DNA from: an uncultured virus (IMG/VR IMGVR_UViG_3300030101_003361)
Taxonomy: Duplodnaviria > Heunggongvirae > Uroviricota > Caudoviricetes
Virus record (IMG/VR): IMGVR_UViG_3300030101_003361
Location: 44,470-64,469 of that record
DNA: 20,000 nt
Reading direction: 5' to 3' (one strand)
Notes under the pieces: generated by a model
Told to the model about the DNA's origin: nothing
The model's input: only the letters and a program-made list of their open reading frames with translations
The model's database searches: none
Shown: one piece after another, positions 16,052 to 19,404 of the stretch
Layout of the letters: every line of letters starts with the position of its first letter
Numbering within the stretch: the stretch's first letter is position 1
Translations under genes and position numbers: made by a program

Positions 16052-16055
16052 ATAA

Positions 16056-16155
16056 GGAGGCGGATGAAACTAGGAATGACAGAGATGCACTCAGCGCCTT
16101 ACACTCTTAATCTGTTTATATCATCTTTCTACCTTTCGGCTTCCTGACTACCTCC
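16056..16155 (-). ncRNA. Candidate structured ncRNA 1 (~100 nt)
   Basis: Nested stems GGAGGT/GCCTCC, AGGAA/TTCCT and AGATG/CATCT, plus a GCC-GAAA-GGT tetraloop hairpin; GC-richer than surroundings; between tRNAs. Confidence 0.6.
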
Positions 16156-16158
16156 AAT

Positions 16159-18332: not shown

Positions 18333-18612
18333 TTATGTACCTGAATATGTCCAAGGATTATTTGAACAATACTCATCTATTTCTTTTTCTTCTTTATATA
18401 TTTCATCTAGATTTTCAATTGTTTCATTAATTCTTTCNNNNNNNNNNTTCACCCATTGAAGTTTTAATGTAACAAACTTTTGTACCATCAAACTCATTTT
18501 CTAATTCCCATACGAATTTACCATTTAGATATTTTTTATATCCATTAGGAAAATAACCTGACATAAAGTCATTTATTACTAATCTACTAAAATCATTTCT
18601 TTTTACTATCAT
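18333..18612 (-). CDS. Hypothetical protein probably spanning the N gap at 18438-18447
   Basis: MIVKR...SMGE before the gap; open frame ERINETIENL...WTYSGT* after it. True gap length unknown. Confidence 0.55.
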
Positions 18613-18788
18613 AATGTATTTTTTACTTTTATTAATTCTTTATTAACTTTTTCTATTCTATCATAATCTTCCGCATCTCTTACTTGTTCTAATAAAGTTT
18701 CAAGTGCAAGTATTATCATACTTTTATTTAATTTTCTTACTTGGACATATTTTTTAAATATTCCATCACAATTTAATATATTACTCAT
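18609..18788 (-). CDS. Small protein with UVR-like C-terminus (start re-called to MSNILN)
   Basis: LLEQVRDAEDYDRIEKVNKELIKVK. Confidence 0.6.
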   Translation of the reverse strand: MSNILNCDGIFKKYVQVRKLNKSMIILALETLLEQVRDAEDYDRIEKVNKELIKVKNTL

Positions 18789-18802
18789 AATTTTTAATTT
18801 AG

Positions 18803-18843
18803 AGAGATAGGTGAGAATCGAACTCACATTAACCATTTATCTC
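18803..18843 (-). ncRNA. Minimal tRNA-like element (acceptor stem + T-arm only)
   Basis: GAGATAA-ATGGTTAAT-GTGAG-TTCGATT-CTCAC-CTATCTC-T. Confidence 0.7.
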
Positions 18844-18905
18844 AAACTTGTTCAACAGTTTTTATAGTGGTATCAGAAAAGAAAGTTATAAACCTCCACT
18901 TTTTA

Positions 18906-19106
18906 TTAAAATTTTATTTTATCTAATTCTTTATCAATTCTTTCTAATTCATTTGAAAAGTATTTTTGAATCGATTTCGGTTGATGTTGTGTATAGCAAT
19001 TTTTAAAATTATTTAAACTATATTTAATTTTTTCAATTGCTAACAAATTAATTATTTTTTGTTTCAACTTTTTATCTTTTATATTATTATCGAATGTTGT
19101 TTTCAT
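18906..19106 (-). CDS. Hypothetical protein
   Basis: 66-aa ORF; ATGA overlap with the upstream ORF. Confidence 0.6.
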   Translation of the reverse strand: MKTTFDNNIKDKKLKQKIINLLAIEKIKYSLNNFKNCYTQHQPKSIQKYFSNELERIDKELDKIKF

Positions 19107-19116
19107 TTGTAACGTA
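19085..19116 (-). promoter_or_regulatory. Putative phage promoter copy D
   Basis: Minus strand TACGTTACAAA-tgaaaacaacattc-GATAATA, straddling a gene junction. Confidence 0.78.
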
Positions 19117-19404
19117 TTTTTATATGATTATTATTTTTTGACCAATAATTTGACCACATGTCATCAATTTCCATTGGGTCTTGATTTTGAAAGAATTTAA
19201 AATCTTTATCATCACTTTCTTCATATAAGAATTTAATTTTATCTATATAATCAGATATTTCGTCATGTGACAAATCGTCATGATTTTGAATCCAATCGTT
19301 ATATACTTCGTCTCTATCNNNNNNNNNNTTTTGTCATTACTTTTATTTTTTAATCGGTTATAAAATGTATTAAATCTTTTTTTATCTATTCTAGTGAATT
19401 TCAT
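19103..19404 (-). CDS. Acidic hypothetical protein interrupted by the N gap (19319-19327); start at 19404 or 19337
   Basis: Post-gap frame DRDEVYNDWIQNHDDLSHDEISDYIDKIKF...HIKIRYK*. Confidence 0.55.

What the first reader, a model, noticed from the sequence alone, without database searches (positions are those of the whole stretch)
18803..18843. 41-nt tRNA 'top half': acceptor stem plus canonical T-arm, with no D or anticodon arm
Seen: GAGATA/TATCTC stem (7th pair A-C), a 9-nt linker containing GG (ATGGTTAAT, D-loop-like), a perfect GTGAG-TTCGATT-CTCAC T-arm and U73. It is followed by CTAA and an AT-rich leader into an ATG, the same 3' context as tRNA-Gly (T-CTAA...ATG). Known: acceptor plus T-arm is what RNase P, RNase Z, CCA-adding enzyme and EF-Tu recognise. 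Inference: a purposeful tRNA mimic, either a processing signal that cuts the early polycistronic mRNA or a decoy for tRNA-targeting defence proteins, rather than random decay. Standard tRNA finders would likely miss it.
Basis: partly seen in the sequence, partly recalled or inferred. Interest (0 to 1): 0.85.

Follow-up and report, generated by a model that had tools for sequence, protein, structure and literature searches.

The report
Pseudoknot-capped tRNA top-half in marine phage
A 41-base RNA shaped like the top half of a tRNA, preceded by a small RNA knot, is a real and conserved element of uncultured marine phages; it most likely tells the host's tRNA-trimming enzymes where to cut the phage's early message, though no cut has been shown.

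Summary
The element is real, on the minus strand (18843 to 18803), but the acceptor is 6 bp, not 7. It belongs to a family in uncultured marine phages, probably of Bacteroidota. Of 81 viral loci found by fixing only linker and T-arm, 79 close a 6-bp acceptor, with extensive compensatory change. An unbiased, protein-anchored sample has a minihelix at this slot in 44 of 76 loci. No relative examined has a full tRNA here. The 3' trailer (mostly A73, then CTA/CAA) matches phage and flavobacterial tRNA genes that lack encoded CCA. Acceptor sequences carry no conserved synthetase identity. Best reading (0.55): a cis signal for host tRNA-maturation enzymes that punctuates the early transcript, like plant mitochondrial t-elements, in a MALAT1-like layout. 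The 3' cut is better supported than an RNase P cut. A decoy role remains open (0.2). No RNA ends were observed. There is no Rfam match and ten paper searches found no description; this scan has noted similar minihelices on other DNA.

The parts
18803..18843 (-). tRNA top-half minihelix: 6-bp acceptor (18843-18838 with 18809-18804), 10-nt linker with D-loop-like GG (18834-18833), 5-bp T stem with TTCGATT loop (18827-18811), unpaired C 18810, discriminator U 18803
   Evidence: Sequence; covariation; covariance model score 65.5 bits, by construction
18800..18802 (-). CTA trailer at tRNA positions 74-76, as behind this phage's own tRNA-Gly and tRNA-Met genes
   Evidence: CTA 30 and CAA 7 of 44 unique minihelices; CTA 15 and CAA 5 of 22 phage tRNA genes
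18845..18900 (-). Predicted H-type pseudoknot: P1 AGTGG 18900-18896 with CCACT 18870-18866; loop 1 with conserved GTT 18893-18891; P2 AACTT 18887-18883 with AAGTT 18849-18845, plus conserved GAA 18853-18851; A-rich loop 3 18865-18854
   Evidence: P1 perfect in 20 of 28 unique stems against a null mean of 2.2; an A-U to G-C swap in P2 between the window and L001; P2 support weaker. The fold is inferred, not probed.
18786..18799 (-). AT-rich leader without Shine-Dalgarno sequence, and the ATG (18788) of the downstream 59-aa ORF 18788-18609
   Evidence: The longer ORF from the linker ATG (18836) is probably not used: the linker ATG is in frame with the next ORF in only 21 of 72 relatives.
18906..19106 (-). 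Upstream small ORF (66 aa from ATG; the true start may be internal); its stop lies 5 nt before the pseudoknot
   Evidence: no PHROG or Pfam family at threshold
19083..19117 (-). Promoter-like repeat (ATACGTTACAAA ... GATAAT), one of four copies in the genome, about 180 nt upstream of the cassette
   Evidence: copies at window 19117, 17202, 16679 and 12435, all on the minus strand. The promoter role is inferred from position only.

Best explanation
The pseudoknot plus minihelix is a cis-acting punctuation cassette in the phage's early transcript. SHOWN: the secondary structure is kept by compensatory change, it lies in the sense of transcription between genes, and its 3' trailer copies that of CCA-less tRNA genes. 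INFERRED: the linker GG docks on the T loop to mimic the tRNA elbow. Host RNase Z (or trimming to C74) then cuts after N73 and the CCA-adding enzyme completes the end, freeing the downstream early genes with a short AT-rich leader. INFERRED, less securely: RNase P also cuts at N1, releasing a 41-44-nt RNA and leaving the upstream mRNA with a pseudoknot 1-4 nt from its 3' end as an exonuclease shield. If RNase P does not cut, the upstream mRNA ends in pseudoknot + tRNA mimic + CCA.
For: Acceptor closes with >=5 of 6 Watson-Crick pairs in 79 of 81 viral loci where the pattern did not fix it; 22 of 32 unique combinations are perfect against a null mean of 1.3, maximum 8 in 10,000 permutations. 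92 of 94 elements lie in the sense of flanking ORFs; 0 antisense T-arms in 80 protein-anchored loci. GG is in the linker in 39 of 43 short closures found without a linker pattern. Trailer: CTA/CAA in 37 of 44 and A73 in 36 of 44; a flavobacterial MAG has 0 of 22 tRNA genes with CCA and all 22 with C74. That MAG has RNase Z and an RNase P RNA with the L15 GGU. The pseudoknot sits at fixed distance (GAA to N1 9-12 nt in 33 of 34). Where no tRNA-like element fills the slot, a hairpin + U-tract does in 3 of 23 loci against 0 of 53 (p=0.025, weak). Minihelices are RNase P substrates in vitro (PMC11221534); t-elements mark mRNA ends (PMC1920247); a 3-nt spacer is tolerated in the T4 Pro-Ser dimer (PMC11143913).
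Against: No RNA end was observed: only contigs were available, and RNA-library contigs run across the element. G1 is present in only 9 of 44 minihelices against 16 of 22 tRNAs of the flavobacterial MAG. The stem is 6 bp, and 19 of 44 have only 11 bp from the T loop to the end, while a 7-bp acceptor is called a major RNase P determinant (PMC4201824). The leader before the pseudoknot is 1-4 nt, shorter than the -8 to -3 stretch bound by the RNase P protein. 23 of 76 relatives lack a canonical element at the slot, so it is dispensable or replaceable. The host is inferred, not known. Every feature that suits a processing signal also suits a matured decoy.
Confidence: 0.55

Rival explanations
1. 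Trans-acting decoy or ligand: the matured minihelix (or pseudoknot + minihelix, about 105 nt, CCA-tailed) is the product. It soaks up host proteins that bind the tRNA elbow or 3' end, such as defence enzymes that modify tRNA 3' ends (recalled, not from a call).
For: Made in the earliest region, behind a promoter-like repeat. The T-arm and trailer are kept while flanking genes change (46 downstream clusters among 93). The same phages carry longer anticodon-less tRNA look-alikes. Found in 1 of 101 genomes of the flavobacterial MAG's family, and that hit is the phage-like contig.
Against: There is no anticodon loop, so it cannot decoy anticodon nucleases. No synthetase identity is conserved (23 distinct 5' hexamers, G3.U70 in 1 of 44), so charged-tRNA mimicry is unlikely. 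Single copy in 9 of 10 genomes by pattern. No dedicated promoter directly in front.
Confidence: 0.2
2. Passive structural boundary: the two folds act as a pause, terminator or exonuclease barrier without cleavage by tRNA enzymes.
For: Terminator-like hairpins fill the slot in some relatives (3 of 23 strict). A promoter-like motif lies within 100 nt downstream in 7 of 85 loci.
Against: A barrier needs no canonical T loop, GG, A73 or C74, all of which are kept. No U-tract follows and no terminator is called here.
Confidence: 0.1
3. Ligand-controlled processing: the pseudoknot is an aptamer whose folding hides or frees the minihelix leader.
For: Conserved unpaired GTT and GAA triplets, with a matched GTC/GAG variant in 2 of 47, and fixed spacing to the minihelix.
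Against: No Rfam riboswitch match. The pseudoknot is optional and replaceable by a second type or a hairpin. Two unmatched variants also occur. Downstream genes share no theme.
Confidence: 0.06
4. Neutral remnant of a deleted tRNA gene.
For: The T-arm and trailer are clearly tRNA-derived, and longer variants exist.
Against: All six acceptor pairs show two-sided changes (9-20 of 32 sequences each). No full tRNA at this site in 13 close relatives.
Confidence: 0.04
5. DNA-level element: an attP site or a recombination hotspot that shuffles early genes.
For: The same cassette lies between different genes in close relatives.
Against: No tyrosine integrase (PF00589) in the 98% complete genome. An attP does not need a covarying 5' strand or G-U-tolerant stems. 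No match in 100 other genomes of the putative host family.
Confidence: 0.05

Closest known systems
Plant mitochondrial t-elements (Forner et al. 2007, PMC1920247; passages read)
   Same: Non-coding tRNA-like structure with a T-arm motif beside an mRNA, proposed cis signal for RNase Z and RNase P.
   Different: Those are organellar, longer (74 nt for cox1) and have mapped ends. This is a 41-nt phage element without D or anticodon arm, coupled to a pseudoknot, with no mapped ends.
MALAT1 ENE + mascRNA 3'-end module (PMC8457004; passages read)
   Same: A protective fold directly followed by a tRNA mimic; a cut at the mimic would leave a shielded 3' end and a small tRNA-like RNA.
   Different: Here the upstream fold is an H-type pseudoknot, not a U-rich ENE with an A-tract; the setting is a bacterial virus; cleavage is untested.
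Plant virus tRNA-like structures with upstream pseudoknots (PMC8127992; passages and cited titles seen)
   Same: Pseudoknot(s), in tandem in some relatives (by eye), followed by a tRNA mimic with a conserved T loop.
   Different: Those have a pseudoknotted acceptor, a terminal CCA and a specific amino acid. This has a plain 6-bp stem, lies inside a transcript and has no conserved identity.
Phage RNase P substrates: P1/P7 C4 RNA, bacteriophage M3 RNA, T4 tRNA-Pro-Ser dimer (PMC11143913, section 11 read)
   Same: Phage RNAs handled by host tRNA-processing enzymes; the T4 dimer lacks encoded CCA and has a 3-nt spacer.
   Different: Those are full tRNAs or other stable RNAs; no sequence family link was found.
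tmRNA tRNA-like domain (RF00023) and YrlA Y RNAs (PMC4201824; passages read)
   Same: Acceptor, GG loop and T arm; relatives give sub-threshold tmRNA hits that skip the whole middle of the model.
   Different: No G3.U70, no tag reading frame, no Ro60 gene in the genome; YrlA has a D stem and a closed acceptor loop.
Synthetic minihelices (PMC11221534; passages read)
   Same: Acceptor + T stem as a sufficient substrate for RNase P and other tRNA-binding enzymes.
   Different: This one is natural, keeps a 10-12-nt GG linker and has no encoded CCA.

Membership tests
tRNA (RF00005) | 7-bp acceptor stem | tested here: not met
   Pair 7 formed in 10 of 32; A7 invariant
tRNA (RF00005) | D stem and anticodon arm | tested here: not met
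   10-nt linker only; no ARAGORN or Rfam call
tRNA (RF00005) | 5-bp T stem with 7-nt TTCGANT loop | tested here: met
   stem variants in unbiased relatives
t-element-like processing signal | Non-coding tRNA-like fold with T-arm motif next to an mRNA, in sense | tested here: met
   92 of 94 in sense; ATG of an ORF within 40 nt in 64 of 93
t-element-like processing signal | Element ends coincide with mapped transcript ends | tested here: inconclusive
   Only contigs could be laid and they cannot show ends
t-element-like processing signal | Cleavage by RNase Z and/or RNase P | not testable with these tools
   Both enzymes are present in a flavobacterial MAG; cleavage needs a bench test
tmRNA (RF00023) | G3.U70 alanine identity | tested here: not met
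   1 of 44 unique minihelices; the window has G3-C70
tmRNA (RF00023) | mRNA-like domain with tag | tested here: not met
   No ARAGORN tmRNA in the genome; Rfam hits far below gathering
YrlA Y RNA | Ro60/TROVE gene nearby | tested here: not met
   No PF05731 match in the genome
YrlA Y RNA | D stem-loop and Rfam Y RNA match | tested here: not met
MALAT1-type ENE + mascRNA | U-rich internal loop with A-rich tract forming a triple helix | tested here: not met
   The upstream fold is an H-type pseudoknot; triples only hinted
MALAT1-type ENE + mascRNA | RNase P cut at the 5' end of the tRNA mimic forms the upstream 3' end | not testable with these tools
   G1 rare and stem 6 bp argue for caution
Plant virus TLS | Pseudoknotted acceptor stem and terminal CCA | tested here: not met
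   Plain stem, CTA/CAA trailer
attP site | Integrase in the genome and identity to a host tRNA 3' end | tested here: not met
   No PF00589 match; serine integrases not searched; no model match in 100 other genomes of the family

The most novel reading that the evidence does not exclude
Marine Bacteroidota phages have evolved a MALAT1-like 3'-end-forming module: a triple-helix pseudoknot set at a fixed distance before a minimal tRNA mimic. Host tRNA-maturation enzymes would use it to give the first early mRNA a protected end and to release a natural CCA-tailed minihelix that may itself act on host tRNA-binding proteins.
Probability: 0.3. Interest if true: 0.82.

Novelty: new variant of a known kind. 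Interest (0 to 1): 0.62.

Why it matters
Minihelices are known mainly as laboratory constructs. If the cassette punctuates transcripts, tRNA-style processing of mRNA ends, described in plant mitochondria and at MALAT1, also operates in phage early genes. The many natural variants (11 or 12 bp, 7- or 9-nt T loop, with or without pseudoknot) give a ready test set for what RNase P, RNase Z and the CCA-adding enzyme need.

Tried and rejected
Rfam: no family for the element or the upstream fold (window; 20 loci at E<=1; 17 loci at gathering). Isolate phage collection: no record covers 80% of the 126-nt cassette; only short matches, many to tRNA T-arms. RNA evidence: two RNA-library runs hold 0.41 and 0.28 of the words, but all four laid runs were contigs. 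One RNA contig stops at 18840, yet another contig with different upstream sequence branches there and RNA contigs of two other runs cross the site, so this is no evidence of an end. Coding explanation: linker ATG in frame in 21 of 72, about chance. Sigma-70 promoter scan: 43 sites against 42.2 expected, uninformative. The conserved 75-aa gene found upstream in 54 of 94 loci is absent from this genome and has no Pfam or Atlas hit. The ligase-anchored search gave 5 loci whose stored DNA mostly did not reach the slot. Five Bacillus/Pradoshia hits do not close a short acceptor and were left out. A first regex for the pseudoknot was too strict. The stop codon was mis-assigned in some loci and corrected. 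A ribozyme reading of the upstream fold (HDV-like, pistol; features recalled) was dropped for lack of any Rfam match. Papers: searches found no description of this element; two searches were for background. In PMC10690425 (10,006 viral candidate RNAs), supplement files 3-6 gave no hit to short motifs or sample numbers, but those tables may hold no sequences, and the alignment archives and PDFs could not be read, so an unnamed entry there is not excluded. PMC5389517, PMC5737381 and PMC9004378 (passages only) describe nothing like it in what was shown.

Full report
Observation. The element is on the minus strand: a 6-bp stem (18843-18838 with 18809-18804), a 10-nt linker with GG, a perfect T-arm, U73, CTA and an ATG 14 nt later. 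ARAGORN and Rfam see only tRNA-Gly and tRNA-Met in the window. No shuffle out of 300 gave a T-arm closed by a short acceptor, and the genome has only three perfect T-arms. Stability alone is unremarkable (z -1.5). Independent DNA and RNA-library contigs span the site.

Setting. The window is the end of a 64,469-nt virus record, 98% complete, with replication genes followed by small early-type ORFs, all on the minus strand. The primase-helicase is closest to Cellulophaga, Tenacibaculum and Flavobacterium phage proteins at 32-41% identity, and the runs that hold the DNA are mostly marine metagenomes. A Bacteroidota host is inferred from this. The four MAG contigs with the element were binned to one Flavobacteriaceae and three Gammaproteobacteria genomes, so binning gives no firm host.

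Close relatives. One viral contig and 12 metagenome contigs share the core. All keep the minihelix and about 60 nt upstream of it, while the genes on both sides change; none has a full tRNA there.

Family. A pattern that fixed only the linker and T-arm found 81 viral loci. The acceptor, which was free, closes with at least 5 of 6 Watson-Crick pairs in 79 and 6 of 6 in 68. Among 32 unique stem combinations 22 are perfect, against a permutation mean of 1.3 and a maximum of 8 in 10,000. I aligned 32 of 56 unique elements (those with one unpaired base after the T stem): each of pairs 1-6 shows two-sided changes in 9-20 sequences, whereas pair 7 forms in only 10. Related sequences share changes, so these counts are cells, not events. 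Nineteen of 44 unique elements lack the unpaired base altogether.

Unbiased sample. In 54 of 94 loci the cassette follows one conserved 75-aa ORF, which this genome lacks. Anchoring on that protein gave 527 relatives, of which the best 80 were fetched and 76 had enough DNA. Within 400 nt of the stop, 44 have a minihelix (35 with a 7-nt and 9 with a 9-nt T loop), 8 a longer tRNA-like form, 1 an unclosed T-arm and 23 none. No T-arm lay antisense in the 80 loci, and GG was in the linker of 39 of 43 short closures. A strict hairpin + U-tract was found in 3 of the 23 empty slots and 0 of the other 53 (p=0.025), a weak hint that the slot marks a transcript boundary.

Upstream pseudoknot. A descriptor scored 24 or more in 51 of 82 unique upstream regions against 8.5% of shuffles. 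In 35 regions that I picked by eye as one type (one misaligned row dropped), P1 anchored on unpaired motifs is perfect in 20 of 28 unique stems (null mean 2.2, maximum 8 of 5,000). P2 is weaker: 11 of 22 against 6.9. The conserved GAA lies 9-12 nt before N1 in 33 of 34. On the raw alignment P1 pairs in 65.7% of cells, above all 500 shuffles. A profile of this fold gave 53 unique hits in 191 sequences: 42 have a T loop within 35 nt, 8 within 110 nt and 3 none; these loci were chosen through the minihelix or the anchor gene, so the coupling is overstated by design. Loop-1 GTT and the GAA triplet change together to GTC/GAG twice and separately twice among 47, so a triple helix is only hinted. The pseudoknot is optional: some minihelices follow the stop codon within about 20 nt, and a second pseudoknot type occurs.

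What the ends say. Positions 74-76 read CTA in 30 and CAA in 7 of 44 unique minihelices, and A73 occurs in 36. The phages' true tRNA genes read CTA 15 and CAA 5 of 22. A flavobacterial MAG has no encoded CCA in 22 tRNA genes, all starting with C74. That MAG encodes RNase Z and a type A RNase P RNA with the L15 GGU. So the 3' side copies a CCA-less tRNA gene. The 5' side is less tRNA-like: G1 in 9 of 44 against 16 of 22, a 6-bp stem, and a very short leader. PMC4201824 calls a 7-bp acceptor a major RNase P determinant, but RNase P cleaves minihelices in vitro (PMC11221534) and a 3-nt spacer occurs in a T4 precursor (PMC11143913). No synthetase identity is conserved (G3.U70 in 1 of 44).

Mechanism. 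I commit to a cis processing signal (0.55): 3' maturation by RNase Z or trimming plus CCA addition is the better supported step, and an RNase P cut that leaves a pseudoknot-capped upstream mRNA is the less certain one. Structure, orientation and trailer are shown; enzyme action, RNA ends and host are inferred. A trans decoy (0.2), passive barrier (0.1), ligand-controlled switch (0.06), DNA-level site (0.05) and neutral remnant (0.04) are the rivals. The element is single copy by pattern in 9 of 10 related genomes and in this one, and was not found in 100 other genomes of the putative host family.

Comparison and novelty. It works like a plant mitochondrial t-element (PMC1920247) laid out like the MALAT1 3' module (PMC8457004), but it is not a member of tRNA, tmRNA, YrlA, MALAT1-type or plant virus TLS families on the features tested. 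Rfam has no match, and searches found no description. The alignment archives of PMC10690425 could not be read and may hold it unnamed. Earlier notes of this scan report similar minihelices on other phage DNA and gave me the t-element comparison; they are unchecked and not independent support. A word search of those notes for a pseudoknot partner found nothing. Verdict: new variant of a known kind, interest 0.62.

Noticed in passing
L003:397-461 (+), L130 (minus strand, T-arm at 941), L164, L202: Longer anticodon-less tRNA look-alikes (about 65-80 nt) in the same phages; these four have G3.U70 with A73, an alanine-type identity like a tmRNA tRNA domain without its message part. Similar forms in L143 and L154 lack G3.U70.
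   Followed up: partly
   Followed up: partly
window 19117, 17202, 16679, 12435 (minus strand): Four copies of a promoter-like repeat, all in the early/middle region; a looser form lies within 500 nt upstream of 50 of 85 elements (no null computed).
   Followed up: partly
window 16053-16156 (minus strand), between tRNA-Met and tRNA-Gly: ORF-free segment closed by a GGAGG/CCTCC stem whose ends are also seen in L003 and L005; folding z-score only -0.8, no Rfam match.
   Followed up: partly
L029, L039, L081, L085, L093, L111, L152, L153, L180: A second upstream pseudoknot type (short GGT/ACC stem plus a 7-bp stem) stands before the minihelix, sometimes in tandem with the first type.
   Followed up: no
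L257, L264, L266, L276, L278, L279, L292, L293, L295: Minihelix variants with a 9-nt T loop and a 12-nt linker.
   Followed up: partly
L219, L220, L223, L224, L226 (Bacillus and Pradoshia records): A different T-arm-bearing non-coding element that does not close a short acceptor; no Rfam match at gathering for the two tested.
   Followed up: no
L076, L169, L171, L184, L201: GC-richer contigs with unlike flanking genes carry the same minihelix design, two or three copies within a few kb in L076 and L169.
   Followed up: no
L001:2263-2305: A second minihelix with a different acceptor in the closest viral relative.
   Followed up: yes
window 18438-18447 and 19320-19329: Two 10-N scaffold gaps break small ORFs near the finding.
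   Followed up: yes
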